Positions 32,048 to 61,885 of a stretch of DNA of 64,000 bases are shown in pieces. The stretch comes from Acidobacteriota bacterium. Lineage in GTDB: Bacteria > Acidobacteriota > Vicinamibacteria > Vicinamibacterales > CAVVIG01. Where the stretch lies: the NCBI GenBank assembly GCA_046728115.1, contig JBKPDW010000072.1, forward strand, positions 1,166 through 65,165, given 5' to 3'. Numbering within the stretch: position 1 is the first letter of the stretch; every line of letters begins with the position of its first letter. The translations under genes and the position numbers were made by a program. The notes under the pieces were generated by a model. The model was not told the DNA's origin, ran no database searches, and saw only the letters and a program-made list of their open reading frames with translations.

Positions 32048-33097
32048 TCAAGAAGAGGCGCCTGACTGTCCGGCCGGCCCAGAAACGCGGGGAGGAACAG
32101 CGTCCGCTTCCGCCGTTTTCCAGACACGCGCGCCATCGGTCCGGAACGGCCCGCAGTACACGCAACCTTCAACCGCCAAGGCGTCGAGCGCGGCACGTAG
32201 CCGGTCGGCGAGGCGCCGTTCGGCGTCGTCACCCTCGACGACTCCGTAGACGGCAGGGCCCCACGAGCTCTGTCCGACACCCGATGCGCCCAGTTCGGTC
32301 ATGCGGCGAACAAGTTCTTCGCTCGCTCCGGGCGCAAATATGCCGCCTTGCACCTCGGCGAACCAGCGGCCCGTGATCGCCTGGATCGCCGTGAGCGCGC
32401 TGCCGAACGTGGCGAGATCGCCCTCCACGATCGCGGGCAGGAGCGCCATGACGACGAGATGTGCCACATTCGCCACGTCGCGCTCGGACGGCGGAGGAAG
32501 CTGCGCAAAGGCCGCAGCTTCCGTGGCGCCGCTGATAGCGGGTGGCGCGTCGGGCACGGCGACAACGCATCGCCAAGTGGGCGGGAACGGCAGCCGCGCG
32601 AGCAACGGCGCAACGGCGTGACTCGTCTCGCGCCGACCGCCCTCGATGACGAGACCCCCCCCGGCGAAGGTCCACGTGCCGACGGCGGATCGGTGCGCGC
32701 GTCCCATGGCGCGGGCGAGATCAGGGGCGTGCGACGAGAGGCCATGCAGCTCCGCCAACGCTCGTGCGACGGCTAACGCGAGCTGCGTGCCCGACCCAAG
32801 TCCGGCGTGCTTGGGAAGCGCCCGATGCACGCAGAGCCTGCCACCGCCACGCCGCAGGTCATGATGGTCCAGGAATCGACGTGCAAAGGCAGTGGCCCTT
32901 TCGGCATCATCGCCGATGATCTCCAGGGTGTCGGCCGGAGTCGCCGAGACGAGAAGCGTTGGCGCAGGCGCCGCCGCGCCGATCCCCCCGAACCTTCGTC
33001 CCAGATCTCCGCGAAGGTCGAGCAGCCCGAAATGGAGCCGCGCAGCGGTTTCGACAAAGACCGTGCGCCCATCAGCCAACGCGCCGCCGCTCGTCAT
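32048..33097 (-). CDS. mptG: Beta-ribofuranosylaminobenzene 5'-phosphate synthase (GHMP-kinase fold; first committed step of methanopterin synthesis)
   Basis: Trimmed to Met103 (MTSGGALADGRTVFVETAARLHFGLLDL...). GHMP motif PKHAGLGSGTQLALAVA. ATGA overlap at 33094-33097. Confidence 0.85.
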   Translation of the reverse strand: MTSGGALADGRTVFVETAARLHFGLLDLRGDLGRRFGGIGAAAPAPTLLVSATPADTLEIIGDDAERATAFARRFLDHHDLRRGGGRLCVHRALPKHAGLGSGTQLALAVARALAELHGLSSHAPDLARAMGRAHRSAVGTWTFAGGGLVIEGGRRETSHAVAPLLARLPFPPTWRCVVAVPDAPPAISGATEAAAFAQLPPPSERDVANVAHLVVMALLPAIVEGDLATFGSALTAIQAITGRWFAEVQGGIFAPGASEELVRRMTELGASGVGQSSWGPAVYGVVEGDDAERRLADRLRAALDALAVEGCVYCGPFRTDGARVWKTAEADAVPPRVSGPAGQSGASS

Positions 33098-33660
33098 GCG
33101 CGTTCTGAGTTCACGGGCGTTGACCGGACGTGTTCGGTGAGCAGGGCCATCGCCTCGAGCTCCGGCGGACCTGCGGTCTTGTCCACGATGACCTGGAGCC
33201 GCGCCAGCTCGCTCTCGACGAACGGGCGAGCCAGCAGGTGCAGGCGTGTGGCGTAGATCGCCGCTTCGAGCACCGCGTGGCGGGCGCGATTGAAGCCGAT
33301 GAATTCGCGACGCACGCCGCGGTGAACGACGGTCATCTCGATTCGCGATCGCGGCACCGTGCTGTCGATCGAGCTGACCCTCAACTCCCGCCACGAGCAG
33401 CAATCGGCGAGCACGACCCCGCGGACTGTGACTGCGGGCACTGTTGGGTATTGGGGGTTCCCGATGGCGGCACTCGCGAACACCCGTACATCGTCAGTGA
33501 GGTTGACAACGGCGGCTTTCGTCGCCACGACGTTTCGATACGTCGTCGTCTCGAGGAACGGTTTGAGGACGAGGACCGTCTCTCCCCATTCGACGCCCAT
33601 CGGGGCGCAGTTCACTGCGCCGTCCTCGGCGACGGTCGTGACGATGGTTTCGAGAATCAC
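33094..33660 (-). CDS. DUF447 family protein (split-barrel, flavin-binding-like), H4MPT-cluster associated
   Basis: MILETIVTTVAEDGAVNCAPMGVEW... is the usual DUF447 N-terminus. The family is typically found in methanopterin gene clusters. Confidence 0.75.
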   Translation of the reverse strand: MILETIVTTVAEDGAVNCAPMGVEWGETVLVLKPFLETTTYRNVVATKAAVVNLTDDVRVFASAAIGNPQYPTVPAVTVRGVVLADCCSWRELRVSSIDSTVPRSRIEMTVVHRGVRREFIGFNRARHAVLEAAIYATRLHLLARPFVESELARLQVIVDKTAGPPELEAMALLTEHVRSTPVNSERA

Positions 33661-33670
33661 AGGTCAGCGT

Positions 33671-35116
33671 TCACGTATCGGACTTGCTGCGCGGTTGCGC
33701 GTTCAGCCTGATGTGTTCCGACTTTACATCATCGGGCGGGGTCAGATACCCCCAGGCGAGCGCGCCTTCCTGACGGTAGGTCTTGCCGAGCGTGACCGCA
33801 AGGCTTGCCCGCGCCAGTTCCTTGCCAAGGTAGAACGCATGCGCAGCGTCATCCACGTCAAGCCGCGCGAAGATGCCCGCTATGTTGGGCAGATCAGTGC
33901 TGCGTACGAAGCGCTCATTGTTCAGCACGGTGATTGCCGATTCGTCGGTGAAGATGCGGTAGTTCGGATCGGTAATCTCCGATTGCAGCGCCCGCAATTC
34001 ATCTTCGCTGTACACGAGCACAGCAGGATCCTTGGTCGTCACGAGTCGGTCGTCCATGCCTTTCGGCGCGGTGTGCCCCGTTACGGCGTAGTGCATCAGG
34101 CGCCGGGCGATGTCGACCTCGCGGACGGCGCCGCGCGCCCACGGGATCACCTCCGTGGTCAGCACCGTTCGCACGCCCAGCTCCTGGCACACCGCGATCA
34201 GGAGCGCGTTCACGCCTGTTGAATCCGCAGCAGTCATCTCCGTCAGGTTGCCAATACCCATCAACATTCCCGCGTCGGGGTGCCGCCTTCGGACTTCCGC
34301 ATAGCGTTCGAGCGAGGCGAAGAAGCCGTAGCCGATCGGCTCGAGAATCGGATCGATGAGGTACGGAACACCCTGGCGGACGAGCTTCTCGAGTGTTGGC
34401 TCCAGGGTGTCGAGCGTGCCACCGAGATCGGGGACGACGACCGCGCGCGCACCGGTGCCGGCCAGATCACGCGCCACATCGATGTTCGAGCTGTTGAGGC
34501 TCAGCACCAGTTCCGCTCCGGCTGCCACAGCGGTGCGAATCTCGTCAGGGTCGAAGGTGTCGACGCTTACCCGGATTCCCGCGGCCACGAGCTCGCGCAC
34601 CACATCGCCGAGCGACGGGAAGCCGAGCCCTGGCGTGCACCCGATGTCGATGAGGTCGGCGCCCGACGCGCGGAAGTAGTTCGCCGTGTCGCTCAGCGCT
34701 GCGCGCGTGAGCCGAGGTGCGTTGTTGATTTCGGCGACGATCTCGATATCCGACGCGCCGTACTCGCGTGCGACGGCTGCCCGGCCGAAGTACTTCGGGA
34801 TTTCGCGCAGGTCCTTCGGGCCTTTATCCACAGCGACGCCGACGTGATCGGCGACCGTCTTCGGATCCCCCTCGCACAGCCCCGGAATGAGCACGAGATC
34901 CGTGTCCTGCGGCACGGCGAGGTGGCGCGCTATCCAGGACGTCGTCATCAACGCCGCGACCGTGATGCCGAGCACGGCCACGTCGTACGCAAAAGGCGGC
35001 GCCATCTCGGCAAGCACGCGGCGCAGCGCCGGTTCGGCCAGCCGTCCGGTGACGAACAGCACGCGCTGCGGCCGACGAGCGTCGTGTGCCGTCGCCGAGG
35101 CCGGGGCGTTCGCCAT
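33671..35116 (-). CDS. Dihydropteroate-synthase-like pterin-binding protein of methanopterin biosynthesis
   Basis: ~480 aa. Central ...ADLIDIGCTPG...VSVDTFDPDEIRTAVAAGAELVLSLN... pterin-binding-barrel pattern. Its start shares 1 nt with the upstream stop (TGATG at 35114-35118). Confidence 0.8.
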   Translation of the reverse strand: MANAPASATAHDARRPQRVLFVTGRLAEPALRRVLAEMAPPFAYDVAVLGITVAALMTTSWIARHLAVPQDTDLVLIPGLCEGDPKTVADHVGVAVDKGPKDLREIPKYFGRAAVAREYGASDIEIVAEINNAPRLTRAALSDTANYFRASGADLIDIGCTPGLGFPSLGDVVRELVAAGIRVSVDTFDPDEIRTAVAAGAELVLSLNSSNIDVARDLAGTGARAVVVPDLGGTLDTLEPTLEKLVRQGVPYLIDPILEPIGYGFFASLERYAEVRRRHPDAGMLMGIGNLTEMTAADSTGVNALLIAVCQELGVRTVLTTEVIPWARGAVREVDIARRLMHYAVTGHTAPKGMDDRLVTTKDPAVLVYSEDELRALQSEITDPNYRIFTDESAITVLNNERFVRSTDLPNIAGIFARLDVDDAAHAFYLGKELARASLAVTLGKTYRQEGALAWGYLTPPDDVKSEHIRLNAQPRSKSDT

Positions 35117-35478
35117 CAGCGCGGGTCGCCGCTGCGCACGAACTTGTTCGGCGTGCCCGTCAGCGCGTCCCCCGCTGGTGGACGCCAGAGGACGATACTC
35201 TCGATCTGGCGGGCGAGCCCAAAGTCTTTGTCGGTGATACCGCCGGCGCTATGCGTCGACAGCTTGACCGTCACGCGGCCCCAGGTAACCGCGAGATCGG
35301 GATGGTGAAAGGCAGCCTCTGCAAAGTATCCGATCGCGTTGACCAGCATCAATGTTGTTGGCCACCCATCGGTCTTGTAAACGCGGCGGATCCACCCGTC
35401 CTCGTAATACCACCCGGGCAGCGCTTTCAACCGTTCGGTGATCTGCGCATCGTCGTACGTCGGTTCCTTCTGCGACAT
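35116..35478 (-). CDS. Pterin-4a-carbinolamine dehydratase (PCD/DCoH family)
   Basis: Trimmed to MSQKEPTYDDAQITERLKALPGWYYEDGWIRRVYK...AEAAFHHPDLAVTWGRVTVKLSTHSAGGITDKDFGLA, the family signature. Confidence 0.8.
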   Translation of the reverse strand: MSQKEPTYDDAQITERLKALPGWYYEDGWIRRVYKTDGWPTTLMLVNAIGYFAEAAFHHPDLAVTWGRVTVKLSTHSAGGITDKDFGLARQIESIVLWRPPAGDALTGTPNKFVRSGDPR

Positions 35479-36615: not shown

Positions 36616-37557
36616 TTACCAATACGCGATGCCGTCCGGACCTTGGCCGACCGGCACCTTCGTCGTCACCGCCCAGGTCGATGTGTCGATCACGTCCATT
36701 TCGTTCGCAGCCGCGCACGCGACGTAGGCTCGGCGTCCGTCTGGCGCAACGACGATTCCGCCGGGGCTACCACCGACGGAGATGGTTCTGATCTGCTTCT
36801 GCGACGCGACATCATAGACGGTGACATCGGAGGAACCCGCGTCCGGAATGAACACCGTTCTTCCGTTCGCGCTGAACGCGACGCGGATCGGACCGTTCCC
36901 CGTCGGTAAGGTGGCCACGACCTGCCGTTTTGCGGTATCCACGACACTGACGGTATTGTCCGTGCGATTCGCCGCCCACAGTTGCTTCCCGTCGGGAGAG
37001 AGTGCGAGACCCTCCACTCCCTTGCCGGCTGGGATGTTCGTGACGATTTTCATTGCGTTGACGTCAAAGACCGACACCGTGGCGGAAGTCACGTTCGTGA
37101 AGTAGGCCCAGCGGCTATCGGGGCTGACAACGACCATGTGCGTCCGCTCCTGATCCGTGTCGACCGCCCGGGCGATGTCGTCCTTTCGTGCGTCGACGAC
37201 GATGATCTTCTTCTTCCCCTCGCTGGTCACGAATGCGTAGCGGCCGTCCGGCGTGAACGCCACTCCGTGCGGAGTCCCGAAATCGGCCGATGTCATCTTC
37301 TTCAATTCTTTGCGAGCCGTCAGGTCGATGACCGAGACGGTGTTCTCGCCAGTGTTGGCGACGTACGCCTTCGATCCATCCGGAGAGACCGCCAACTCGT
37401 GCGGAGTCATGCCTACGGCGACGGTCTGTTCCGACTTCATCGAGGTCGCATTGACGAACGAAAGACTGTTCCCTGCTTTGTTCAGCACCAGGACGAGATT
37501 CGGACCGGTCGCAAACAGGACGGACGCGAAAAACCATAGCGCTAGAAAAACGCTCAT
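36616..37557 (-). CDS. Secreted YVTN-type beta-propeller repeat protein
   Basis: Repeated ~40-aa units ...PHELAVSPDGSKAYVANTGENTVSVIDL..., ...PHGVAFTPDGRYAFVTS..., ...GLALSPDGKQLWAANRTDNTVSVVD..., ...GIVVAPDGRRAYVAC.... Confidence 0.8.
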   Translation of the reverse strand: MSVFLALWFFASVLFATGPNLVLVLNKAGNSLSFVNATSMKSEQTVAVGMTPHELAVSPDGSKAYVANTGENTVSVIDLTARKELKKMTSADFGTPHGVAFTPDGRYAFVTSEGKKKIIVVDARKDDIARAVDTDQERTHMVVVSPDSRWAYFTNVTSATVSVFDVNAMKIVTNIPAGKGVEGLALSPDGKQLWAANRTDNTVSVVDTAKRQVVATLPTGNGPIRVAFSANGRTVFIPDAGSSDVTVYDVASQKQIRTISVGGSPGGIVVAPDGRRAYVACAAANEMDVIDTSTWAVTTKVPVGQGPDGIAYW

Positions 37558-37582
37558 TGCAAACCTCCTCCGCAGATTCCAC

Positions 37583-38401
37583 CTACATCAACCTGCAAAT
37601 CATGCGAGTCGGTCCGGCATCGGAATACCAGAGAACGCCATTGCCGTCGATGTCGAGCCCGTGGGGTTCGGGATCGTCCTTCGACAACTGTATCTTCGTC
37701 AGAATGCCCCCATCCCTCGGATCCAGCTTGTAGATGGCGCGGTCGTCGGAATTGATCACCCAGAGCAGGCCTTTGTCCCACGCGATGCCATGCGTGCGCG
37801 GGGTCGACCCAGGCGCCGGAATGCTTCGGATGATTTCGCCGGTCTCCGGCTCCATCAGAAACACTCGTCCACTTGCGGGCACCGCCATCCAGTACTTCCC
37901 ATCCACCCACTTCAGACCGTGCCCGCCCGACGGCGTATCGGTCTCTGGATTCATTCTTCCGTAGTATCCGGAGCCGGGTGTCCGCCAGGACTTCAGCGTT
38001 TTTCCTGTGTTCGGATCGACCTTCAACGTGACCGGCGGATCCTTCGGGTTCTTCATCTTGGTGGAGGTGATCCAGAGCGCGCCGTTGCCGTAGGTGATGC
38101 CGCTGCCGTGGATCGACTCGGTCATGATTTCCCGAATGACGGCGCCGCTCTCCGGCCTCACCAGGAACGCTTTGTTGCCGGGCTGATCGACCTGATCGAG
38201 GATCCACAAGCCTTCCGGGGTGAACTGAAGATCGTTCGGCTGCCGGCAGCCCGAGACCGTGTACAGCTTCTCGGCGCGCTTCATGATCACCGGTACACTC
38301 TCGCGGGCGCGCGTCGCGAGACGAGAGGTGACGGTGAACGCAGGAGCCGCGACAACGCCAGTCAGAAAACGGCGACGCGAAATCTGGTGACCGCTCGACA
38401 T
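37583..38401 (-). CDS. Tat-signal beta-propeller-like hypothetical protein
   Basis: MSSGHQISRRRFLTGVVAAPAF leader. Repeated ...GLWILD..., ...ALWITS..., ...HGIAWDKGLLWVIN..., ...HGLDIDGNGVLWYSD... blades. The family was not confidently recognised. Confidence 0.7.
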   Translation of the reverse strand: MSSGHQISRRRFLTGVVAAPAFTVTSRLATRARESVPVIMKRAEKLYTVSGCRQPNDLQFTPEGLWILDQVDQPGNKAFLVRPESGAVIREIMTESIHGSGITYGNGALWITSTKMKNPKDPPVTLKVDPNTGKTLKSWRTPGSGYYGRMNPETDTPSGGHGLKWVDGKYWMAVPASGRVFLMEPETGEIIRSIPAPGSTPRTHGIAWDKGLLWVINSDDRAIYKLDPRDGGILTKIQLSKDDPEPHGLDIDGNGVLWYSDAGPTRMICRLM

Positions 38402-39169: not shown

Positions 39170-39182
39170 TCAGCGTCTGATT

Positions 39183-39228
39183 GAATCTGAAGTTCGGAAT
39201 CCGAACATCCGAACTCCTGAAATCTGAA
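39183..39228. repeat. Degenerate heptamer run (TCTGAAG TTCGGAA TCCGAAC A TCCGAAC TCCTGAAA TCTGAAA) containing the perfect 15-bp palindrome GTTCGGAATCCGAAC (39192-39206)
   Basis: Read directly in the divergent spacer between the kinase-like gene and the HisA/HisF-like gene. An extra TCCGAAC half-site lies at 39208-39214. Confidence 0.6.
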
Positions 39229-40008
39229 ATGCGCGTCCTGGGCGTCCTCGACCTGCTGGACGGCCGCGCTGTGCATGCGCGCGGCGGCACACGCACCCGC
39301 TATGAACCGGTTCGAGCTGTCGACGGCGCCGCCATCGAACCCGGCAGCGCGCTCGAGCTCGCGCGAGCGTATGTCGATCGTTTTGGCCTTGCCGATCTGT
39401 ACGCCGCCGATCTCGACGCGATCATGGGCCGCAGTTGGCAGGGTCGGCTCGTTGCGGAACTGGCTGCGTTCGGCGCGCTCTGGCTGGACGCGGGCGTGTC
39501 GTCCGTTGATGCGGCGCAGCGCGCGCTGGCCCTGGGTGCTTCACGCGTCATCGTCGGCCTCGAGACGCTTGGGTCATGGGAGGCGCTCCGCGAGATCTGC
39601 GCGGCGGCGGAGCGCGAGCGCGTGGCCTTCAGCCTCGATTTACGAGACGGTGAGCCGCTGGCGCACGCGGGCATCACGCGTCGCGAACCCGCGCCTGTCG
39701 TGGCGTCGCGTGCCGCCGACAGCGGGGTTCAGTCGATCGTCGTAATCGATCTCGCAAAGGTCGGCGCAGGTTCTGGGCTCGATCTGGCATTGATCGAAGG
39801 CGTGCGGGCGGCAACCCCTCGCGTGACGCTGCTCGCCGGGGGAGGTGTTCGCGGGCTCGACGACATACGGCGCCTGGCCGATGCCGGCTGTGACGGCGTT
39901 CTCGTCGCGTCGGCGCTGCACGATGGCCGGCTCGGCGCCGCCGACGTCACGGTTGCACGGCGCCTCGATCGGAGCGGCGGGCTTTCAGCTCCGCGGACTC
40001 TCGCCTGA
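39229..40008 (+). CDS. HisA/HisF-family (beta/alpha)8-barrel protein of the H4MPT-cluster type
   Basis: Trimmed to MRVLGVLDLLDGRAVHARGG...VIVGLETL...VIDLAKVGAGSGLD...LLAGGGVRGLDDIRRL...GVLVASALHDG. Confidence 0.8.
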   Translation: MRVLGVLDLLDGRAVHARGGTRTRYEPVRAVDGAAIEPGSALELARAYVDRFGLADLYAADLDAIMGRSWQGRLVAELAAFGALWLDAGVSSVDAAQRALALGASRVIVGLETLGSWEALREICAAAERERVAFSLDLRDGEPLAHAGITRREPAPVVASRAADSGVQSIVVIDLAKVGAGSGLDLALIEGVRAATPRVTLLAGGGVRGLDDIRRLADAGCDGVLVASALHDGRLGAADVTVARRLDRSGGLSAPRTLA

Positions 40009-40452
40009 AAGGCTCGCGCTACAGGTTCCTCGCTACCAGAGAGGACGCGCCCGCGGAGGAGTGTCGGTGAACGAGGACGGCGCTGTTTCTTTTCCTGAAC
40101 ATCTGGACCATTGCGGCCGCTCGAGCGGCGCACCGCTGCAGCTATAAGCAGAAAGCAAGACCACACCGTTGTCACCGATATGTCATTGCACCGCCGCACG
40201 TCGGGCGCATTCGATCCGTCTCAATCAATGAACCGTCTTGCCGCTCGACGATCGGCGGCAGCGTCCTGCCGCGACGTATCGCTCTGTCGCTCGGAGCCGC
40301 CGGCTTTCTGTGTGAATGCTGCGTTCCGATTCGAACCGCATTGCCGTGCACATGCGGCATGTGAACCGACAACAAATCAACCGTCATGACGCTACTGGCA
40401 CTGTCCCTGCACCATGGCAGATCGCGCCTGCTTGATATGGAGCGAGGTAGTC

Positions 40453-40863
40453 ATGAAGACACTGATGCTGAAGATCTCCTGGGTCGTGTTTGCCACAACA
40501 GCCCTTGCGCTTGGCAGCGCATCCGCTGCACGGGCTGACGAACGGATCGTGGTCAAGGTACCGTTCGCCTTCATCGTGCACGACACGAGCCTGCCGGCAG
40601 GCGATTACGTCGTGAAGGAAATGTCCGACGGATCGGGCGTGCTCGAAATCGCGACCGCTGATGGCCGGGACTTCGTGTGCGCGCTGACCATCGCTTCGTC
40701 TGACAAATCGGCCGCACAGCCGGAGCTCGTATTCGAGAAGTTCGCCGGCCGCTATTTCCTGGCGCGAGTCGTATCGCGGGACGGCACTGGTCGCGAAATC
40801 GTTCTCACGCCGGCGATCATGGAACGCGAGATCGCCCGGACGGCGGACCGTACAACCGATTAG
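40453..40863 (+). CDS. Small secreted hypothetical protein
   Basis: ATG at 40453 preceded by GAGGTAG. MKTLMLKISWVVFATTALALGSASAARA signal. No family recognised. Confidence 0.55.
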   Translation: MKTLMLKISWVVFATTALALGSASAARADERIVVKVPFAFIVHDTSLPAGDYVVKEMSDGSGVLEIATADGRDFVCALTIASSDKSAAQPELVFEKFAGRYFLARVVSRDGTGREIVLTPAIMEREIARTADRTTD

Positions 40864-44301: not shown

Positions 44302-44408
44302 GAGGGCTCCGCGACGAATGGTTGGTGAATTGGTGCGCCTCAGAGGCTCGTGCGATTCGCGCACTCGAAGATCAGCTTGACGGGAAGCTACGTCACCGTG
44401 ACCTGCGG

Positions 44409-45666: not shown

Positions 45667-45719
45667 CGGGTAATCACCAGGACGAAAACGGTTTCCATCT
45701 GGCGCCGCACGAGGACCCC

Positions 45720-45908: not shown

Positions 45909-45946
45909 CCTGGGGCCATCGCCGGTGACCCGGGCCTGCTGCGGGT

Positions 45947-45993: not shown

Positions 45994-45994
45994 T

Positions 45995-52367: not shown

Positions 52368-52471
52368 GAATCTGCTATTTGCCGCATTTTCAATTCACGA
52401 ATCCCAAATTTCCCCAATTCCCAATTTACCGATTCAATTACCCGATTACCCGGTTACTCAATTACCCGATT
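52368..52471. repeat. AT-rich degenerate repeat spacer; exact 14-mer TCAATTACCCGATT at 52434-52447 and 52458-52471, plus CCCAA(A)TT units
   Basis: Read directly between the fhcC 3' end (stop 52454-52456) and the fhcD start (52367). The second 14-mer lies inside the fhcC 3' end. Confidence 0.6.
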
Positions 52472-53303: not shown

Positions 53304-54929
53304 TCAGCGGCAAGGCCGGACCTCGGCATCCCGCAGGCGCTCGATCTCCACCGGATAGTTCTCGAACGAGATGGTGTAGACCTTCTGGAAGACCTGTCGC
53401 AGATAGTCCTCGATCCGATCATCGTATGCCGGATGGACGATGAATTCGCGGCCCGCCGTCATGGCGCGCACGTCCCCGTCCTCGACGATGATCTCGCCGC
53501 CCTTGATCACGTAGCGCGGATACGTGAAGAGGCGACCGTCATCCGGCTTTTCGTGATAAATCGTGATGTCCGCATCAGCCCCCGCGCCCAGATGACCCTT
53601 CTGCGACAGCCCAAGCGACCGCGCCGGACCCGCGGAGGTGATGATCGCAATCTCGGACAACGTGTACTCGCGGTCGAGATCGCCGAGCACGACTCGCTGC
53701 TGCGCTTTGCTCGGAAGCTTCTTGACCTGCGCCTTCCGGAACTCCACGTCCGTCAGAAGCTGAATGATCTCCGGGTACCGCCAGAAGCAGGCGCCATTGG
53801 GATGATCCGTCGTGAGAAAGACCCGCCAGGGGTCGTCGATCAGGAGCAGCAGCTCGAGGCCGACGGCCCACTGCACCGCGTTGACCAGATTACGGTCCTT
53901 GTAGACATAGGGAACGATGCCGCACCCGGTCTCGTTCTCCACGTCCAGGTTCCCCCACTTGTGGCCCGTGAGCTGGTAAAGCAGATGCTGCCACGGCCCG
54001 TCCGCCGTGATGGTCACCGCGTCGCCAAACAACACGGCGCCGGCATCGGTCGTGAGATTCCTCTGCGCGTTGAACGCATTGGCCACGCGGGCCGACTCGG
54101 ACCGCATCGAGCTCCAGTCGTCGCCGCCGTACGCGTGGAATTGCAAGTGCGCGAGGTGCGCCCGACAACCGTTGAGCAGGTTCATCGTTTCGAGCGTGGT
54201 CGTCACGTTGCCCGGAATGCCCAGGTTGTTGCAGTGGAGATGAATCGGATGGGGAAGCTTCAACTCGTCGACGATCGCCGCGAGGCTCGCAATGATTCGC
54301 GCGGGCGTCACATGCGTATAGCCCTCGACGGGCTCGAAAAGCGCGTTCGCGTTTTTCCCCCACTTCCAGGCTGCGACGCCTCCGGGGTTGACCGCCTTGA
54401 CGCCGTATGCCTTGGCGGCCCAAATGAGCCACGCGATCACGTGTTTGGCGCGCTCCGTCTCGCCCGCCTCGAGCAGGTCCATGACGAGCTCGTTGTTGGC
54501 CATGAGCACGAGACTCGTCTTGTCGACGAGCGGGATGTCGTGCAGCTCTTCGTGTGTGTGTCTCGCCGAAAGGATCGGGACAGCCGCTTCGTTCACCGTT
54601 GTCCAACCCATACCCGCGTACAAGTAGCCCGTAGCGAACGTGGTGGGCGTCATGCCACCCAGGCCGGCGCGGCGTTCCGGGGTATGCAGGAATTTTCGTG
54701 CGGCGCGCTGGTTCTCGGGCACCAGTCCACGCGCGAAGTTGAGCGCGCCGCCGGCGACGTGCGTATGTACGTCGACGCCGCCGGGGAACACCACCATCCC
54801 GCTTGCATCGATCGAGCGGCCGCCCTCGACATCGGCCACGATGCGTCCGTCCGCAACGCAAACGTCTTTGATGACGCCGTCGATCCCGTTCGCGGGGTCG
54901 TAGACCTTGCCGCCGGTTATGCGCAACAT
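53304..54929 (-). CDS. fhcA: Formylmethanofuran dehydrogenase subunit A homologue (amidohydrolase fold)
   Basis: MLRITGGKVYDPANGIDGVIKDVCVADGRIV...VFPGGVDVHTHVAGG.... ~540 aa, typical FwdA/FhcA pattern. Confidence 0.9.
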   Translation of the reverse strand: MLRITGGKVYDPANGIDGVIKDVCVADGRIVADVEGGRSIDASGMVVFPGGVDVHTHVAGGALNFARGLVPENQRAARKFLHTPERRAGLGGMTPTTFATGYLYAGMGWTTVNEAAVPILSARHTHEELHDIPLVDKTSLVLMANNELVMDLLEAGETERAKHVIAWLIWAAKAYGVKAVNPGGVAAWKWGKNANALFEPVEGYTHVTPARIIASLAAIVDELKLPHPIHLHCNNLGIPGNVTTTLETMNLLNGCRAHLAHLQFHAYGGDDWSSMRSESARVANAFNAQRNLTTDAGAVLFGDAVTITADGPWQHLLYQLTGHKWGNLDVENETGCGIVPYVYKDRNLVNAVQWAVGLELLLLIDDPWRVFLTTDHPNGACFWRYPEIIQLLTDVEFRKAQVKKLPSKAQQRVVLGDLDREYTLSEIAIITSAGPARSLGLSQKGHLGAGADADITIYHEKPDDGRLFTYPRYVIKGGEIIVEDGDVRAMTAGREFIVHPAYDDRIEDYLRQVFQKVYTISFENYPVEIERLRDAEVRPCR

Positions 54930-55132
54930 GGAAATCGGGTAAATGGGGATCCGTCAGGCGATCGCCTGGTATTTGGAAGAATCCTTGCCTGCGTTGATCT
55001 GCTGGCCCTGCTTCGTCGTGCGGCCTGCGTTCATGATGAAGCGCCCGGCTGCCATCGGAATACGGTTATAACACGACGGCGGCTCGCCGATAGAATAGCC
55101 CAACAGAATTCGCGACGTATTCGGAGGCAGCG

Positions 55133-58071: not shown

Positions 58072-59301
58072 TCAACGCTCGGGACCACGGCTGCCCCCCC
58101 ACGCAATGAGATCCGCGTACACACGCTTGGCTTGGGCGACCAGCGCCGAGTAACACGCCGCCGCATCGGGACCTTCGGCGCATACCGTGCACACCGGGCG
58201 GCCGGCGCGAATGGGTGCGCCCGGATGCGGAATATCGCGGATGTCCGCATCCGGATCGATGGGGCTGCGGCGACTCCACGCGCAGGTGTCGCCAGCCGTG
58301 ACATCCTGCCGTGCGAAGACCACTGCCTTTCCAAACGCACCTCGAGACCCGAGCCGCGCCTGCGCGAGATCGAAATCGGGCAGCATCCCGGCATCGCACG
58401 CGGACGCGTGGATGGCGAATACGGTGAGGCCGTAGGCGCGCTCGAGGAGCTCCATCGACGCGCACCAGCGTGGGTTGATTTCGACGGCGTAGGGAATGCC
58501 ATCGCACGCCACGAAATCGATCCCGTTGACGCCGACGAGGCCGAATTCGACAGCTACACGGCGGGCGAGCGCGCAAGCCGCATCGATCACAGCTTCGTCG
58601 CGCCCAAATTGCACGTCGCCGGCCGCGGCGAGAATGTTTCCGCAATACCTGAAGCCCGACGATCCGAATGCGCCGTCGCCAATCAGCTGGCGAAATACGC
58701 CGAGTGGCACGGCACGGCCACGGGCCGCCGCGAACACCACTGAGCCTGGCGTGCCATCCACGAGTTCCTGGAGATAGCAGCCGCGTGGCACGGCGTCGCC
58801 CGGATGCCACAGCCTCACCTGGTGTCCGCCGCCCGATGCCAACGGCTTCAGAAGCCATCGACGATTGGTGAGGTCCGGTGTCAGCCGCGTTGGTTCAGGC
58901 GTCTTGGCGTACGGCCGGTTCAAGATGGGCTCGACGCATGAGGCTGGCGCCGCCAATCCGTTCTTCCAGAGTGTGTGTGCGACGAGGATTGGATCGCGGG
59001 CCCGCTTCAATACATCGGGCGGGTTGCCCCACAGCGTTCGATTCGCGGCGAGCGTGCGGACCGCTTCGGGATGATTCTCGAAGTTTGCGAGGTACGCGAC
59101 TGCATCGCATGAGATGTTGCGAACAATCTCGGCCGCGGCGCGTGCCGTGAATGTTCCAGGGAGCGACAACGCGCGCACGGCCGGATGCTGATCGGAATCG
59201 GCGAACGCGTCGATTGCCGTCACGCCGAAGCCCGCCCGCGCCGCCGACTCGGCGGCCGCGCGGGCCGACACGCCCGCGATTAGAACGCTTTCAGCTCTCA
59301 C
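58072..59301 (-). CDS. ATP-grasp-fold protein (predicted ATP-dependent carboligase type) of the C1-cofactor cluster
   Basis: MRAESVLIAGVSARAAAESAARAGFGVTAIDAFAD...LLKPLASGGGHQV...GVNGIDFV...AVEINPRW. Confidence 0.7.
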   Translation of the reverse strand: MRAESVLIAGVSARAAAESAARAGFGVTAIDAFADSDQHPAVRALSLPGTFTARAAAEIVRNISCDAVAYLANFENHPEAVRTLAANRTLWGNPPDVLKRARDPILVAHTLWKNGLAAPASCVEPILNRPYAKTPEPTRLTPDLTNRRWLLKPLASGGGHQVRLWHPGDAVPRGCYLQELVDGTPGSVVFAAARGRAVPLGVFRQLIGDGAFGSSGFRYCGNILAAAGDVQFGRDEAVIDAACALARRVAVEFGLVGVNGIDFVACDGIPYAVEINPRWCASMELLERAYGLTVFAIHASACDAGMLPDFDLAQARLGSRGAFGKAVVFARQDVTAGDTCAWSRRSPIDPDADIRDIPHPGAPIRAGRPVCTVCAEGPDAAACYSALVAQAKRVYADLIAWGGSRGPER

Positions 59302-60388
59302 GATCGAGTTTCAGTCTGGAGCGAGCCGCGGCCGGAGAGATGAAGTGAAGATGATCGAGAACCGTGCCTGAAGCGTCGCGAATGCCGAGGGCATCGACGA
59401 TGGGAGCAAAGCGCCCGCCCGCAAGCCCGTCCGCAATCACGGCGGCGCCCTGAGCGCCCTGCTTCGACGTAGCGGCAAATCCGCTGAGCCCGCAGACCGT
59501 CGCGCGTGGAAGCGCAGACGCCAACCGGCGCGCCAGTTCCTCGACCACGCCTCCGATACGTGCCACGCGTCCCGAAAGAATCACGTCGCTTGCCTTGGGG
59601 GCGGAGACCGCGAGCGTGATCACCGCTTTTACAGCGCTTTCAAGGTACGCCTCCCAGGCCAGACGTCCTTGCGCTGTGGTTGGCGACGCGAGCGCTTCTG
59701 GTGGAGCCTCGGGTGTACCGGCGATCGTAGCGACACCGCCGGCAAACAGATGATGCTTCGTGACGGCATGGGTCAGAAACGCGACTTCGCCGTCGAGCGC
59801 GCCGGCGGCGCGCAGACCGATCGGTCCCGATGTGCCGCCGAGGCCGTCCACGATTCGACCATCCTCAACCGCGATCGCTGCAGTGAACGCACCGCCAAGC
59901 TCCAGCAAGATCAACGAGACGTCGCGCGGGCCACAGCCGCGGCGCACCGTCCACTCGTGAACGGCCAGCGCGACCGCGCACACTTTGTCCGCTGTTCCCA
60001 TGTCGACGCGGTTCACCTTGCGATATGCCGGGACCGACTGCAGGTGCAGCACACCAGGCGTGAGCACGACGGGAACCGACGAGCGCGCGAGCGCGCGCAT
60101 CAACGCGCGCAGTCCCAGGATGCCGCCCGATGCCTGATCGTCGGGGAGGTAGGCCAGCCGGAGATCCGCCTCGGTCAGATCGCGTGCCGTAACGAGGGGA
60201 AGACCGTAGCCGGACGGTCCGGCAACGAGATCCAGCGGCCGGGCGGCCTCGAGCACGCCCTGCAGCACGGATGGATCGGCCAGCGCGTCGGACGTCGCGA
60301 ACGATCGATCCAGGAAGACGCGTCCATCGTCCAGGCCGCAGACGTCGACGCTGATCGTGCCCGGGTCGATCCCGATTACGCGAGCCAT
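59291..60388 (-). CDS. ASKHA-fold (actin-like ATPase) protein, DUF1464-like
   Basis: Trimmed to Met27 (MARVIGIDPGTISVDVCGLDDGRV..., phosphate-1 motif). 11-nt overlap with the downstream ATP-grasp start. Confidence 0.65.
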   Translation of the reverse strand: MARVIGIDPGTISVDVCGLDDGRVFLDRSFATSDALADPSVLQGVLEAARPLDLVAGPSGYGLPLVTARDLTEADLRLAYLPDDQASGGILGLRALMRALARSSVPVVLTPGVLHLQSVPAYRKVNRVDMGTADKVCAVALAVHEWTVRRGCGPRDVSLILLELGGAFTAAIAVEDGRIVDGLGGTSGPIGLRAAGALDGEVAFLTHAVTKHHLFAGGVATIAGTPEAPPEALASPTTAQGRLAWEAYLESAVKAVITLAVSAPKASDVILSGRVARIGGVVEELARRLASALPRATVCGLSGFAATSKQGAQGAAVIADGLAGGRFAPIVDALGIRDASGTVLDHLHFISPAAARSRLKLDRES

Positions 60389-60484
60389 CTTGGGCGAACG
60401 CTCCGCCACTGAGGACGGGCCCCGTGGTGGCCACCGGTGTGAGTATTCTTTTCGCGTTGTCGTCAATTCGTGGCTGATCGCCCA

Positions 60485-61351
60485 CTAGCTTTTGGATGTC
60501 GCGAGCTCCCGACCGATGTCGGCGATCGCTTCCACGTCGAGCACCAGATCGTTTTGGGCGAAGAGCCGTTCGATGCACGCCTTGTGGATCTTCATTTTCA
60601 GCGCGCCCACGCCGAGTGCGCCGAACGTCGTCGTGCCGTCGCGATCGACGCCGTTGTCCTGGGCCTCGATCCCTTCGACGCCGGCCGGCGGAACAGCGTT
60701 GAGATCGGCGGCGGCGCGCAGTCCGCGTCCAATCCAGGCCGCGCGCGGGATCAGACGAACGCCCGCGGCACCGGCGCTCAGGAGCAGCGCGGCGCCTTCC
60801 AGCGCAGCCGCGGCCTGCGAGGTGTCCGGCAGCGTGACTTCGTCGACCGTGCCGCCGAAGCGGCGTTGAATGCGTTCTGCGAGCGCGCCGTCGTGAGGCC
60901 GGCGTGATGTCGCCCCGACGCGGGCGCCGGCGCGGGCCAGAAGCCCGGCGGCGCGCAGACCCACCGGTCCGGTCGCGGCCGTGACGACCGCGCGTTGGCC
61001 ACGCACATCGCCGACCCCCTGGAGCAGCTTCGCGACGGCCGCAACAGCCGTCGTGTTCGATCCGTTCGAGTCGAGCATGACCGACACGCGCATCGGGCCG
61101 AAAAACGCGCCGCGCACGGCCGACAGCAGTTGCTCGCCCGCCGCGATATCGGTGCCGCCGATGAAGATGGCGGTGTGGCGGAGATCCTTGGGCCCTCGCG
61201 TGAAGATGGCGCCGTGGACGAGATCCCGCACGGCGTCGGCGGTCACGCCGCCGTAGCTCATCACCTCATCCGCGCCCGCATCGTAAGCCACGACCCGGTC
61301 GAAGACGCTTGGCTGCGGCGAGGTGTCGAGTTGCAGCAGGAGATTGCGCAA
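60485..61351 (-). CDS. mtd: NAD(P)-dependent methylene-tetrahydromethanopterin dehydrogenase (MtdA/MtdB/MtdC family)
   Basis: ...PSVFDRVVAYDAGADEVMSYGGV...IFIGGTD...DSNGSNTTAVAAVA...VVTAATGPVG...DLNAVPPAGVEGI... is collinear with the Mtd family. The subtype cannot be told by eye. Confidence 0.88.
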   Translation of the reverse strand: MRNLLLQLDTSPQPSVFDRVVAYDAGADEVMSYGGVTADAVRDLVHGAIFTRGPKDLRHTAIFIGGTDIAAGEQLLSAVRGAFFGPMRVSVMLDSNGSNTTAVAAVAKLLQGVGDVRGQRAVVTAATGPVGLRAAGLLARAGARVGATSRRPHDGALAERIQRRFGGTVDEVTLPDTSQAAAALEGAALLLSAGAAGVRLIPRAAWIGRGLRAAADLNAVPPAGVEGIEAQDNGVDRDGTTTFGALGVGALKMKIHKACIERLFAQNDLVLDVEAIADIGRELATSKS

Positions 61352-61354
61352 CAG

Positions 61355-61885
61355 CTACACACCAACCCCGCGCTTCTTCTCCGCCCCGCCCGCAAACGGA
61401 TGCGCGGCTGTTTTGGCGCCGGTGATCACCTCGTTCAGGGACGGCTTGTTTGCCAGCGCGCGCTGGATCGATTCCTTGGTCGCCTGGTAGTTGTAGTCGT
61501 AAATCTTCTGAGCGTCCTTGGCTTCCCAATGGATGAACACGCCCACGAGCACGCAGTAGTCATCCGCTTTGTCGCGCGGGATCACGCCGGCCTCGACCGA
61601 ATCGACAACGGCGCGTCCAACGGCGGCTTGAGCCGGACCGAACATCTGCACCGCTTGCGCGGCTCCCTTGATGGTGACCTTGTTGAAGAGGAGCGTGTCG
61701 GGCTTGGCCGGCAGGTTCGGCGTCACGACGGCGAGGAGCGTGCTAAAGCCGTCCTTCTGGTTCGAAAGGGCATGTGTGAACGCCGCGCCCGCCGGTCCGG
61801 ACTTCGATCCGATGATGAGGTCGATGTGCGCGACTTCGTTGCCTTCACCGACCAATGACTCACCGATGAAGAAGTCTGCTGCCAT
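61355..61885 (-). CDS. fae: Formaldehyde-activating enzyme
   Basis: [20 protein letters not shown]...[25 protein letters not shown]...AVQMFGPAQ...[11 protein letters not shown]...[15 protein letters not shown] closely parallels proteobacterial Fae. Confidence 0.92.

What the first reader, a model, noticed from the sequence alone, without database searches (positions are those of the whole stretch)
32048..61885. H4MPT/methanofuran-linked formaldehyde-oxidation island in a genome with Acidobacteria hallmarks
Catalytic genes are recognisable by near-collinear similarity to characterised enzymes: fae (61355-61885), mtd (60485-61351), mch (48357-49325), ftr/fhcD (51468-52367), fhcC (52454-53278) and fhcA (53304-54929). 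Methanopterin-side cofactor genes surround them: beta-RFAP synthase mptG, DUF447, DHPS-like, PCD, HisA/F-like, PTPS/QueD-like and CitG-like. There are also a RimK-type ligase, MfnD/E/F-like proteins, a further ATP-grasp and an ASKHA-fold protein. This pathway is established in methylotrophic Proteobacteria, Planctomycetes and methanogens. The same window carries ADOP permease, CarboxypepD_reg receptor and DUF1592/DUF1552 genes, which are typical of Acidobacteria, plus three lanthanide-type PQQ dehydrogenases. Together these would form an alcohol-to-formate oxidation route, implying unrecognised methylotrophy or formaldehyde detoxification capacity in this lineage.
Basis: partly seen in the sequence, partly recalled or inferred. 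Interest (0 to 1): 0.75.

Follow-up and report, generated by a model that had tools for sequence, protein, structure and literature searches.

The report
Acidobacterial formaldehyde-oxidation island missing its dehydrogenase
A soil acidobacterium of the class Vicinamibacteria carries the well-known methanopterin/methanofuran gene island for oxidising formaldehyde; the island is common in this lineage's public genomes, but this copy has lost two subunits of its last enzyme and one cofactor gene.

Summary
All six catalytic genes sit at the stated coordinates and pass curated family cut-offs, and the cofactor genes surround them.

The contig belongs to Acidobacteriota, class Vicinamibacteria. The same island is present in dozens of public Vicinamibacterales and Gemmatimonadales genomes from metagenomes. 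Related claims are already in print, so "unrecognised in this lineage" is overstated.

- **The "fhc" genes are Fwd-type.** They are closer to archaeal formylmethanofuran dehydrogenase subunits than to the proteobacterial Fhc complex. Close relatives carry fwdD-fwdB-fwdA-fwdC-ftr, with an in-frame TGA (probable selenocysteine) at the FwdB catalytic site.
- **fwdB is gone here.** fwdD is cut to a 33-codon stub just upstream of fwdA.
- **mfnB is absent from its usual slot.** It makes the furan ring of the cofactor.
- **The island is split by three insertions** and is inverted relative to the PQQ dehydrogenase that abuts fae in relatives.

Independent metagenome contigs reproduce these junctions.

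Most likely FwdA, FwdC and Ftr now release formate, as Fhc does. Alternatively the missing genes lie elsewhere in the genome, or the pathway is decaying.

All three PQQ dehydrogenases carry the lanthanide aspartate, but none is clearly XoxF. Interest is moderate.

The parts
61355..61885 (-). fae, formaldehyde-activating enzyme
   Evidence: PF08714 229.6 bits. TIGR03126 244.5 against a cut-off of 118. 208.7 bits to M. extorquens Fae 1Y5Y, with the HIDL segment conserved.
60485..61351 (-). mtd, methylene-H4MPT dehydrogenase (MtdA/B/C family; subtype unresolved)
   Evidence: Mpt_N 119.9 bits. 263-265 bits to MtdA structures 6TLK and 1LU9. No NCBIfam hit.
59291..60466 (-). DUF1464 protein, a conserved island member of unknown role (start codon uncertain, 60388-60466)
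   Evidence: PF07318 302 bits. Conserved between mtd and the ATP-grasp gene in relatives.
58072..59301 (-). ATP-grasp ligase; a candidate glutamate ligase (MyfA/OrfY-like) for the methanofuran side chain
   Evidence: ATP-grasp_3 66.6 bits. Syntenic in relatives directly before fwdD. The role is inferred from PMC8141765.
55133..58031 (.). Insertion of two unrelated genes between the ATP-grasp gene and the fwdD stub: an alpha/beta hydrolase (55133-56302, +) and a CarboxypepD_reg plus Vgb-lyase-like propeller protein (56313-58031, -)
   Evidence: Pfam. Absent from all 160 related loci. The junction is reproduced by independent JGI contig L164.
54954..55055 (-). fwdD stub: 33 codons, MAAGRFIMNAGRTTKQGQQINAGKDSSKYQAIA*, the scar of a roughly 1.75 kb deletion that removed the rest of fwdD and all of fwdB
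   Evidence: 27-28 of 33 residues identical to the FwdD N-terminus of L087 and L091. 103 of 120 nt identical to L091 8061-8180. The fwdA ATG follows at 54929.
53304..54929 (-). fwdA ('fhcA'), the formyl-methanofuran amidohydrolase subunit
   Evidence: TIGR03121 689.6 against 392.75. 487 and 474 bits to FwdA 8RJA_A and 5T5I_A, against 356 to M. extorquens FhcA 6S6Y_A. The HxH, K, H, H and D metal ligands are aligned.
52454..53278 (-). fwdC ('fhcC'), beta-helix scaffold subunit
   Evidence: TIGR03122 254.8 against 130.65. 170 and 142 bits to FwdC/FmdC, against 122 to FhcC.
51468..52367 (-). ftr ('fhcD'), formylmethanofuran:H4MPT formyltransferase
   Evidence: FTR 189.4 and FTR_C 209.4 bits. TIGR03119 431.9 against 292.6.
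50393..51457 (-). MfnD-like ATP-grasp ligase (preATP-grasp_3 plus ATP-grasp_3)
   Evidence: Pfam. NF040722 89.7 bits, below the cut-off of 400. The 354-aa gene call comes from L165.
49329..50396 (-). MfnF-like protein, 'H4MPT-linked C1 transfer pathway protein'
   Evidence: TIGR03123 347.1 against 244.1. MfnF NF040623 231 bits, below the cut-off of 520.
48357..49325 (-). mch, methenyl-H4MPT cyclohydrolase
   Evidence: PF02289 387.2 bits. TIGR03120 378.1 against 228.8.
47423..48340 (-). RimK-family glutamate ligase (MptN/MyfB-like)
   Evidence: rimK_fam 216.9 against 143.4. MptN 257.4, below the cut-off of 350.
46482..47426 (-). CitG-like triphosphoribosyl-transferase family protein
   Evidence: PF01874 251.2 bits.
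45995..46498 (-). PTPS/QueD-like protein
   Evidence: PF01242 76.5 bits. Below the NCBIfam cut-offs.
40390..45418 (.). Second insertion inside the island: a small secreted protein (40390-40863, +), an ADOP/MacB-FtsX permease (41866-44301, +) and frameshifted IS66 transposase fragments (44532-45418, -)
   Evidence: Pfam. In relatives PTPS is followed directly by hisAF.
39181..40008 (+). HisA/HisF-like protein (Orf17 type, needed for methylofuran synthesis in M. extorquens)
   Evidence: His_biosynth 124.3 bits. hisAF_rel 117, below the cut-off of 180. Role taken from PMC8141765.
38573..39169 (-). MfnE-like amino-acid-kinase-fold kinase
   Evidence: AA_kinase 60.5 bits. MfnE 69.4, below the cut-off of 300.
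36616..38401 (-). Third insertion: two beta-propeller genes occupying the slot where relatives have mfnB
   Evidence: Pfam. MfnB (PF04476, 172.8 bits in L025) lies between mfnE and the SDR gene in about 40 relatives and gives no tblastn hit in the window. The arrangement is reproduced by JGI contig L163.
35596..36360 (-). Short-chain dehydrogenase conserved in the island; a candidate pterin reductase (inferred only)
   Evidence: adh_short_C2 171 bits. Only generic SDR hits in NCBIfam. Syntenic with PCD and the DHPS-like gene in relatives.
35116..35478 (-). Pterin-4a-carbinolamine dehydratase
   Evidence: PF01329 93.4 bits. NF002017 97.4 against 80.
33671..35116 (-). Dihydropteroate-synthase-like protein (DUF6513 plus pterin-binding domain)
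   Evidence: Pfam. TIGR00284 193.8, below the cut-off of 256.65.
33094..33660 (-). DUF447 protein
   Evidence: DUF447_N 80.2 and DUF447_C 50.4 bits.
32048..33097 (-). mptG, beta-ribofuranosylaminobenzene 5'-phosphate synthase
   Evidence: TIGR00144 160.6 against 113.5. NF040726 188.9, below the cut-off of 328.
857..3309 (+). c-type cytochrome (857-1636) plus PQQ1, a lanthanide-signature PQQ alcohol dehydrogenase (1633-3309). This cluster abuts fae in relatives.
   Evidence: TIGR03075 545.6 against 480. FDYDS motif and a Cys-Cys pair. 87-88% identical orthologues sit directly upstream of fae in L095, L100 and L107.
15640..17382 (+). PQQ2, a PQQ dehydrogenase with the WDFDE motif and no Cys-Cys pair
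   Evidence: TIGR03075 406.7, below the cut-off of 480.
24087..25730 (-). PQQ3, a PQQ alcohol dehydrogenase with the WDYDS motif
   Evidence: TIGR03075 557.9 against 480.

Best explanation
The region is the Vicinamibacteria (Acidobacteriota) version of the bacterial tetrahydromethanopterin/methanofuran C1-oxidation island.

Predicted chemistry:
- Formaldehyde is probably made in the periplasm by a lanthanide-type PQQ alcohol dehydrogenase.
- Fae condenses it with H4MPT.
- Mtd oxidises the product, and Mch opens the ring to formyl-H4MPT.
- Ftr passes the formyl group to a methanofuran-type cofactor.
- About fifteen further island genes make the two cofactors.

In this lineage the last enzyme is ancestrally a true formyl-methanofuran dehydrogenase, FwdDBAC plus Ftr, with a probable selenocysteine in FwdB. 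It would release CO2.

In this genome a roughly 1.75 kb deletion removed fwdB and all but 33 codons of fwdD. Two foreign genes were also inserted upstream. The remaining FwdA (amidohydrolase), FwdC and Ftr most likely act like the proteobacterial Fhc complex. They would hydrolyse formyl-methanofuran and release formate.

Shown here: gene identities, lineage, synteny, the deletion scar, the insertions and their reproducibility.
Inferred: the direction of flux, that the truncated complex is active, that formate is the product, and that methanofuran is still made although mfnB is not in the island.
For: Family scores are above curated cut-offs for Fae, Mch, Ftr, FwdA, FwdC, TIGR03123 and MptG.

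FwdA and FwdC are nearer to archaeal Fwd than to M. extorquens Fhc, and the FwdA metal ligands are intact.

In soil metagenome and MAG relatives with 72-89% FwdA identity, the operon is fae-mtd-DUF1464-ATPgrasp-fwdD-fwdB-fwdA-fwdC-ftr-mfnD-mfnF-mch and onward.
- FwdB there is full length. In L029 it scores 389 bits to FwdB 8RJA_B against 52.7 to FhcB, and keeps the CxxCxxxC and SVCHGPS motifs.
- 61 of 61 'SHTSL*HGPT' sites carry TGA.

The stub and deletion junction were mapped at nucleotide level.

Independent JGI contigs L081, L082, L163, L164 and L165 are 99.4-99.96% identical to the window. They reproduce the stub junction, the mfnB-slot replacement and the fae boundary.

Every remaining island gene is an uninterrupted ORF. 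The window's FwdA, FwdC and Ftr branches are not lengthened compared with relatives.

FwdA-FwdC loci without fwdB upstream recur in other lineages: L083, L113, L120 and L135.

In the Fhc crystal structure the B subunit is only a scaffold. Hydrolysis occurs in the A subunit and formyl transfer in the D subunit (PMC6926001).

PQQ1 is adjacent to fae in relatives.
Against: No B or D subunit and no mfnB gene is present anywhere in the 64 kb window.
- Without MfnB the furan moiety of the cofactor cannot be made, unless a copy exists elsewhere.
- In Fhc, B helps hold A and D together, so a complex without B may be unstable.

The deletion looks recent. The stub is as well conserved as the coding genes, so intact neighbouring ORFs and normal branch lengths say little about selection since the loss.

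Polymorphisms against the JGI contigs are 31 synonymous to 26 non-synonymous, and 9 to 9 in fwdA. That does not demonstrate strong constraint.

No formate dehydrogenase, PQQ synthesis or assimilation genes are in the window.

No experimental data exist for any Vicinamibacteria.
Confidence: 0.55

Rival explanations
1. The missing genes (fwdD, fwdB, mfnB) are encoded elsewhere in the same genome, possibly in a second island copy. The pathway would then still end with a selenium- and Mo/W-dependent formyl-methanofuran dehydrogenase that releases CO2. The copy in the window would be a partly redundant paralogous set.
For: Several relatives carry two fhc/fwd sets on one contig: L049, L078, L128 and L150. 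L141 has a differently arranged second cluster. All remaining genes in the window are intact. Only 64 kb of the genome is visible.
Against: The deleted genes were deleted from exactly the operon that holds the only fwdA, fwdC and ftr seen. Subunits of one complex are normally co-transcribed. No fragment of a second set is present in the window.
Confidence: 0.25
2. The island is decaying. Insertions, an IS66 remnant, an inversion and the loss of fwdDB and mfnB mark a pathway that no longer works in this population and is on its way to pseudogenisation.
For: Three insertions, one deletion scar, frameshifted IS66 fragments and a missing cofactor gene. The polymorphism ratio in fwdA is 9 synonymous to 9 non-synonymous.
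Against: More than 20 island genes keep full-length ORFs with high family scores. There are no internal stops or frameshifts. Branch lengths are not raised. FwdA-C loci without B recur in other lineages, which argues that the state is viable.
Confidence: 0.15
3. One reading: a classical Fhc-type, XoxF-driven methylotrophy module newly discovered in Acidobacteria.
For: The gene families are right. Lanthanide aspartates are present in the PQQ enzymes. The contig is acidobacterial.
Against: The A and C subunits are Fwd-type and the B subunit is absent. The PQQ enzymes are not closer to XoxF than to other alcohol dehydrogenases. The island is common in public Vicinamibacterales genomes and related reports exist. 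No assimilation pathway is in view.
Confidence: 0.05

Closest known systems
The 'archaeal-like' H4MPT-linked formaldehyde oxidation cluster of Methylorubrum extorquens (Fae, MtdA/B, Mch, FhcABCD and the orf genes for H4MPT and methylofuran synthesis)
   Same: The same enzyme families and the same predicted chemistry up to formyl-methanofuran. Fae scores 208.7 bits to 1Y5Y and Mtd 263-265 bits to MtdA. The same cofactor families are present: MptG, DUF447, DHPS-like, PTPS-like, CitG-like, HisAF/Orf17, MfnE, MfnF and RimK/MyfB-like ATP-grasp ligases.
   Different: FwdA and FwdC are more similar to archaeal Fwd than to Fhc. There is no FhcB-type scaffold at all and no mfnB/orf22 in the island. The gene order differs. 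The host is Acidobacteriota.
Bacterial fmdD-fmdB-fmdA-fmdC operons with selenocysteine FmdB (a planctomycete from Porphyra, a Lake Washington fosmid, Ca. Methylomirabilis oxyfera; PMC4807772)
   Same: The window's nearest relatives have exactly this operon, with TGA at the UHxP active-site motif, followed by ftr.
   Different: In the window fmdB/fwdB is deleted and fmdD/fwdD is a 33-codon stub. The dehydrogenase half is therefore missing.
The H4MPT island of soil Gemmatimonadetes MAGs next to xoxF (Butterfield et al. 2016, PMC5103831)
   Same: Near-identical overall gene order: fae-mtd-DUF1464-ATPgrasp-B-A-...-mch-RimK-CitG-PTPS-hisAF-mfnF-mfnE-mfnB-SDR-PCD-DHPSlike-DUF447-mptG. Mch is 67-73% identical. 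The island neighbours a PQQ dehydrogenase.
   Different: Most Gemmatimonadales copies have the order A-D-C with an Fhc-like, non-catalytic B subunit (Ala or Thr at the catalytic position). They are contiguous and they keep mfnB.
Tungsten formylmethanofuran dehydrogenase FwdABCDFG of methanogens (PDB 5T5I)
   Same: FwdA scores 474 bits with its metal ligands conserved. FwdC scores 142 bits.
   Different: There are no B, D, F or G subunits here. The predicted direction is oxidative or hydrolytic in an aerobic soil bacterium, not CO2 fixation.

Membership tests
H4MPT-linked formaldehyde oxidation pathway | Fae (formaldehyde-activating enzyme) | tested here: met
   TIGR03126 244.5 against 118. 208.7 bits to 1Y5Y.
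H4MPT-linked formaldehyde oxidation pathway | Methylene-H4MPT dehydrogenase (Mtd family) | tested here: met
   Mpt_N 119.9 against 27. 263-265 bits to MtdA structures. The subtype (A, B or C) was not resolved.
H4MPT-linked formaldehyde oxidation pathway | Methenyl-H4MPT cyclohydrolase (Mch) | tested here: met
   TIGR03120 378.1 against 228.8.
H4MPT-linked formaldehyde oxidation pathway | Formyltransferase (Ftr/FhcD) | tested here: met
   TIGR03119 431.9 against 292.6.
H4MPT-linked formaldehyde oxidation pathway | H4MPT biosynthesis marker MptG (beta-RFAP synthase) | tested here: met
   TIGR00144 160.6 against 113.5.
Fhc formyltransferase/hydrolase complex (FhcABCD) | A subunit: amidohydrolase with binuclear metal ligands | tested here: met
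   TIGR03121 689.6. The HxH, Lys, His, His and Asp ligands are aligned. However, it is closer to FwdA (487 bits) than to FhcA (356 bits).
Fhc formyltransferase/hydrolase complex (FhcABCD) | B subunit: non-catalytic MopB-fold scaffold | tested here: not met
   No Pfam or NCBIfam hit among the window's ORFs. tblastn with three B-subunit sequences gave a best E-value of 0.06.
Fhc formyltransferase/hydrolase complex (FhcABCD) | C subunit: beta-helix scaffold | tested here: met
   TIGR03122 254.8 against 130.65.
Formylmethanofuran dehydrogenase (Fwd/Fmd) | B subunit with a [4Fe-4S] motif and a catalytic Sec/Cys-His | tested here: not met
   Absent from the window. Present in relatives: L029 has Cys, and 61 loci have TGA.
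Formylmethanofuran dehydrogenase (Fwd/Fmd) | D subunit (Molydop_binding cap domain) | tested here: not met
   Only a 33-codon N-terminal stub remains, at 54954-55055. A full FwdD is present in relatives.
Methanofuran/methylofuran biosynthesis | MfnB (4-HFC-P synthase, which forms the furan ring) | tested here: not met
   No tblastn hit at E<=1 in the window. About 40 relatives have it between mfnE and the SDR gene.
Methanofuran/methylofuran biosynthesis | MfnF, MfnE, MfnD and the glutamate ligases | tested here: inconclusive
   TIGR03123 is met (347 against 244). The MfnF, MfnE, MfnD and MptN equivalog scores are all below their cut-offs.
XoxF-type lanthanide methanol dehydrogenase | Extra lanthanide-coordinating Asp, two residues after the catalytic Asp | tested here: met
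   PQQ1 has FDYDS, PQQ2 has WDFDE and PQQ3 has WDYDS.
XoxF-type lanthanide methanol dehydrogenase | Sequence placement within the XoxF/MxaF clade rather than the ethanol or type II ADH clades | tested here: inconclusive
   The best solved relatives are type II quinohaemoprotein ADH 1KV9 (366-373 bits) or PedH 6ZCV, at or above XoxF 4MAE and 6DAM. No XoxF3 reference was available. No phylogeny with clade references was made.
Acidobacteriota, class Vicinamibacteria | Best matches of island and non-island genes lie in genomes labelled as this taxon | tested here: met
   The top Mch hits, at 72-81% identity, are Vicinamibacteria, Vicinamibacterales or 'Acidobacteria gp6' MAGs. For flank genes, CarboxypepD_reg is 84% identical in L015, and DUF1552 is 70-72% and the ankyrin protein 57-66% identical in L016 and L023. 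In the Mch NJ tree all 33 Acidobacteriota sequences plus the window form one clade. No rRNA or ribosomal-protein marker is in the window.

The most novel reading that the evidence does not exclude
The window captures, within a living soil population, the step that is thought to have produced the proteobacterial Fhc complex. A true selenium- and Mo/W-dependent formyl-methanofuran dehydrogenase (FwdDBAC-Ftr) has just lost its dehydrogenase module. The surviving FwdA-FwdC-Ftr would work as a scaffold-less formyl-methanofuran hydrolase that releases formate. This would free the cell from the selenium and tungsten/molybdenum requirement of the pathway. The same loss seems to recur in several Vicinamibacteria lineages.
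Probability: 0.25. Interest if true: 0.6.

Novelty: new member of a known kind. Interest (0 to 1): 0.4.

Why it matters
Vicinamibacteria are among the most abundant soil bacteria and have almost no physiology attached to them. A conserved island that couples a lanthanide-type PQQ alcohol dehydrogenase to H4MPT/methanofuran C1 oxidation suggests they consume methanol or formaldehyde released from plant polymers. That bears on soil carbon and trace-gas budgets.

Their ancestral terminal enzyme appears to be a selenocysteine-containing formyl-methanofuran dehydrogenase. This extends that enzyme well outside methanogens.

The strain-level loss of the dehydrogenase module offers a natural experiment on how Fhc-type hydrolases arise from Fwd-type dehydrogenases.

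None of this changes the pathway itself, which is textbook. The lineage's C1 potential has already been flagged in studies of genomes assembled from metagenomes.

Tried and rejected
- **B subunit in the window.** I looked with Pfam and NCBIfam on every plausible ORF, and with tblastn using Fhc-type (L031) and Fwd-type (L015, L029) B subunits. Nothing was found.
- **MfnB in the window.** tblastn found nothing.
- **Misassembly of the odd junctions.** Rejected, because five independent JGI contigs at 99.4-99.96% identity reproduce them.
- **Recent horizontal acquisition.** GC content is uniform at 0.62-0.68 across the island and its flanks, and the Mch tree groups all Acidobacteriota together. 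There is no sign of a recent transfer.
- **Selection tests.** Within-population SNPs gave 31 synonymous to 26 non-synonymous. NJ branch lengths showed no acceleration. Both are inconclusive, because the deletion may be recent.
- **Covariation support for a SECIS hairpin in relatives.** Only wobble-preserving changes were seen and no double compensations, so it remains 'SECIS-like'.
- **Rfam, tRNA and repeat scans of the window.** They found nothing relevant.
- **Exact-protein look-up of FwdA.** No record was returned.
- **ORF 45489-45998.** Its translation is arginine-rich junk, so it was dropped as a gene.
- **Literature search for Vicinamibacteria with xoxF or formaldehyde.** No dedicated study was found.

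Full report
**Gene map**

The window is 62-68% G+C throughout, with no compositional break at the island. I picked genes by third-position G+C and scanned them against Pfam and NCBIfam.

| Gene | Family | Score | Cut-off |
|---|---|---|---|
| Fae | TIGR03126 | 244.5 | 118 |
| Mch | TIGR03120 | 378.1 | 228.8 |
| Ftr | TIGR03119 | 431.9 | 292.6 |
| A subunit | TIGR03121 | 689.6 | 392.75 |
| C subunit | TIGR03122 | 254.8 | 130.65 |

Mtd has the Mpt_N domain and scores 263-265 bits to M. extorquens MtdA structures. Fae scores 208.7 bits to M. extorquens Fae.

The cofactor genes are also as described. They are MptG, DUF447, a DHPS-like protein, PCD, HisA/F-like, PTPS-like, CitG-like, a RimK/MptN-like ligase, MfnD-, MfnE- and MfnF-like proteins, a second ATP-grasp ligase and DUF1464. 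Several of these score only at family level, not equivalog level.

**Lineage**

A scan of one genome per GTDB species with Mch found 111 relatives. The best, at 72-81% identity, are almost all Vicinamibacteria, Vicinamibacterales or 'Acidobacteria gp6' MAGs. Gemmatimonadales follow at 67-73%.

Non-island flank genes also find their best matches in those Vicinamibacterales loci. The CarboxypepD_reg protein is 84% identical, DUF1552 is 70-72% and the ankyrin protein is 57-66%.

In a neighbour-joining tree of Mch, all 33 Acidobacteriota-labelled sequences and the window form one clade next to Gemmatimonadota groups.

The contig is therefore acidobacterial, and the island is an old, widespread trait of that class rather than a recent import. 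The exact Fae protein, and 99.4-99.96% identical DNA, occur on JGI soil metagenome contigs.

**What is already published**

- The same island, next to xoxF and supported by proteomics, was described in soil Gemmatimonadetes MAGs (PMC5103831).
- XoxF genes were reported in Gp1, Gp5 and Gp6 Acidobacteria (PMC6784897).
- H4MPT-linked formaldehyde oxidation was reported in group 18 Acidobacteria (bioRxiv 10.1101/2021.04.09.439258).
- XoxF-bearing Acidobacteria MAGs were described from weathered granite. A formaldehyde oxidation pathway was recognised in only 3 of 38 of those genomes (PMC10875860).

I found no study dedicated to Vicinamibacteria. 'Unrecognised in this lineage' is therefore only weakly true.

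**The terminal enzyme is Fwd-type, and half of it is missing**

No B subunit is present in the window.

In relatives a B gene always sits just upstream of the A gene. Two types exist:

- **Fhc-like.** Most Gemmatimonadales loci have the order B-A-D-C. Their B subunit has Ala or Thr at the catalytic position.
- **Fwd-like.** The window's own type has the order A-C-D. It goes with a full-length FwdB and a FwdD.

Evidence for the Fwd-like type:

- In L029 the B subunit is 449 aa. It scores 389 bits to FwdB 8RJA_B and 354 bits to 5T5I_B, but only 52.7 bits to M. extorquens FhcB.
- That subunit keeps the N-terminal CxxCxxxC motif and the SVCHGPS active site.
- It is preceded by a Molydop_binding (FwdD-like) protein.
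- The window's A and C subunits are likewise nearer to archaeal FwdA and FwdC than to FhcA and FhcC: 487 against 356 bits, and 170 against 122 bits. The FwdA metal ligands are intact.

A metagenome scan with the A subunit returned 80 soil contigs at 72-89% identity. Nearly all with enough upstream sequence read fae-mtd-DUF1464-ATPgrasp-fwdD-fwdB-fwdA-fwdC-ftr-mfnD-mfnF-mch-....

In these contigs FwdB reads SHTSL*HGPT, with an in-frame TGA at the catalytic position in 61 of 61 cases. This matches the UHxP selenoprotein motif. A conserved hairpin lies 21 nt downstream, and it varies only by pair-preserving wobble changes. Selenocysteine FmdB in bacterial fmdDBAC operons has a precedent in a planctomycete, a Lake Washington fosmid and Ca. 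Methylomirabilis oxyfera (PMC4807772). Bacterial FwdB homologues have also been noted (PMC10100899).

**The deletion scar**

A 33-codon ORF lies 22 nt upstream of the fwdA start codon (54929), at 55055-54954 on the minus strand. It reads MAAGRFIMNAGRTTKQGQQINAGKDSSKYQAIA*.

- It matches the first 32 residues of FwdD in L087 and L091, with 27-28 of 33 identical.
- At nucleotide level it is 103 of 120 identical to L091.
- After that point, homology jumps to the fwdA start region.

About 1.75 kb, comprising the rest of fwdD and all of fwdB, has been deleted. Between the stub and the ATP-grasp gene lie two unrelated genes. These are an alpha/beta hydrolase and a CarboxypepD_reg/Vgb-lyase-like propeller protein, and neither occurs in any related locus. 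JGI contig L164 reproduces this junction independently.

**Other damage to the island**

- **mfnB.** This gene (PF04476; 172.8 bits in L025) lies between mfnE and the SDR gene in about 40 relatives. It is absent from the window, where two beta-propeller genes fill the slot. Contig L163 reproduces that arrangement.
- **A third insertion.** A secreted protein, an ADOP permease and frameshifted IS66 fragments separate PTPS from hisAF.
- **Inversion.** In L095, L100 and L107 the cytochrome c-PQQ1-TIM-barrel cluster, with PQQ1 87-88% identical, lies directly upstream of fae. In the window it sits 56 kb away and in inverted orientation. This fits an inversion of about 56 kb, which is an inference.

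**PQQ dehydrogenases**

All three carry the extra aspartate of lanthanide enzymes: FDYDS, WDFDE and WDYDS. PQQ1 and PQQ3 pass the methanol/ethanol family cut-off; PQQ2 does not.

Their best solved relatives are type II quinohaemoprotein or PedH-type alcohol dehydrogenases, which score equal to or above XoxF. 'Lanthanide-type' is therefore supported, while 'XoxF' and methanol as substrate are not shown. The conserved adjacency of PQQ1 to fae in relatives is the best evidence that it feeds formaldehyde into the pathway.

**Mechanism**

In the M. extorquens Fhc structure, formyl transfer occurs in the D subunit and hydrolysis in the A subunit. B and C are scaffolds, and B is a degenerate FwdB (PMC6926001). 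This leads to three readings of the window:

1. **Fhc-like hydrolase (favoured, about 0.55).** The remaining FwdA-FwdC-Ftr could in principle still convert formyl-H4MPT to formate.
   - All remaining genes are intact.
   - The window's FwdA, FwdC and Ftr branches are not accelerated.
   - FwdA-C loci without an upstream fwdB recur in other lineages, namely L083, L113, L120 and L135.
2. **Missing genes encoded elsewhere (about 0.25).** Some relatives carry two sets.
3. **Pathway in decay (about 0.15).**

The polymorphism data, 31 synonymous to 26 non-synonymous, cannot decide between these readings.

**Verdict**

This is a correct and careful observation of a textbook pathway. It sits in a lineage where the pathway is common in public genomes but little discussed. 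The added value is threefold:

- the Fwd-type, probably selenocysteine-dependent, terminal enzyme in relatives;
- a clean deletion of that enzyme's dehydrogenase half in this population;
- the missing mfnB.

I file it as a new member of a known kind, of moderate interest.

Noticed in passing
Related loci, e.g. L087:4730-4792, L091:9009-9071, L015:1849-1911: fwdB of Vicinamibacteria-type relatives has an in-frame TGA at the catalytic Cys position (SHTSL*HGPT) in 61 of 61 loci. A conserved 7-bp hairpin (GCYGCCC-AGUU-GGGYGGC) lies 21 nt downstream. This is a probable selenoprotein gene that ORF finders split in two. Four Gemmatimonadetes loci have Cys instead.
   Followed up: partly
window 18792-31833: A duplicated three-gene cassette (ankyrin-repeat protein, DUF1552, DUF1592/PSD-domain cytochrome-like protein) occurs twice in tandem, with PQQ3 between the copies. 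Homologous cassettes flank the island in several relatives (L004, L013, L016, L023, L069).
   Followed up: no
window 44532-45418: IS66-family transposase remnants in two reading frames (73.6 and 20.8 bits). This is a pseudogene next to the ADOP permease insertion that splits the island.
   Followed up: no
window 857-5477 versus L095, L100, L107: The AKR, cytochrome c, PQQ1 and xylose-isomerase-like TIM barrel cluster abuts fae in relatives. Here it is 56 kb away and inverted, which is consistent with a large inversion whose right breakpoint (fae/DUF6282) is confirmed by contigs L081 and L082.
   Followed up: partly
window 13150-14031 and 14435-15700; L015:5778-6842, L091, L096, L100: An unannotated protein and a DUF6152 protein are paralogues. 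Homologues of this family sit between fwdC and ftr inside the island of several relatives, which suggests an undescribed accessory protein of the pathway.
   Followed up: no
L083:1-910, L113, L120, L135: Other soil contigs with fwdA-fwdC also lack fwdD and fwdB upstream, and their neighbours differ. L083, the window's sister in the FwdA tree, has a PD40-type propeller gene ending 23 nt before fwdA. Separation of the hydrolase half from the dehydrogenase half seems to recur.
   Followed up: partly
window 1258-3309, 24087-26381: PQQ1 and PQQ3 score 520-551 bits to NCBIfam 'acido-empty-quinoprotein group A' (TIGR04528, cut-off 650). That family is named for Acidobacteria that lack PQQ synthesis. 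No pqq biosynthesis genes are in the window.
   Followed up: no
window 45489-45998: The 169-codon ORF directly after the PTPS-like gene translates to arginine-rich, low-complexity sequence with no family hit. It is probably not a gene.
   Followed up: yes
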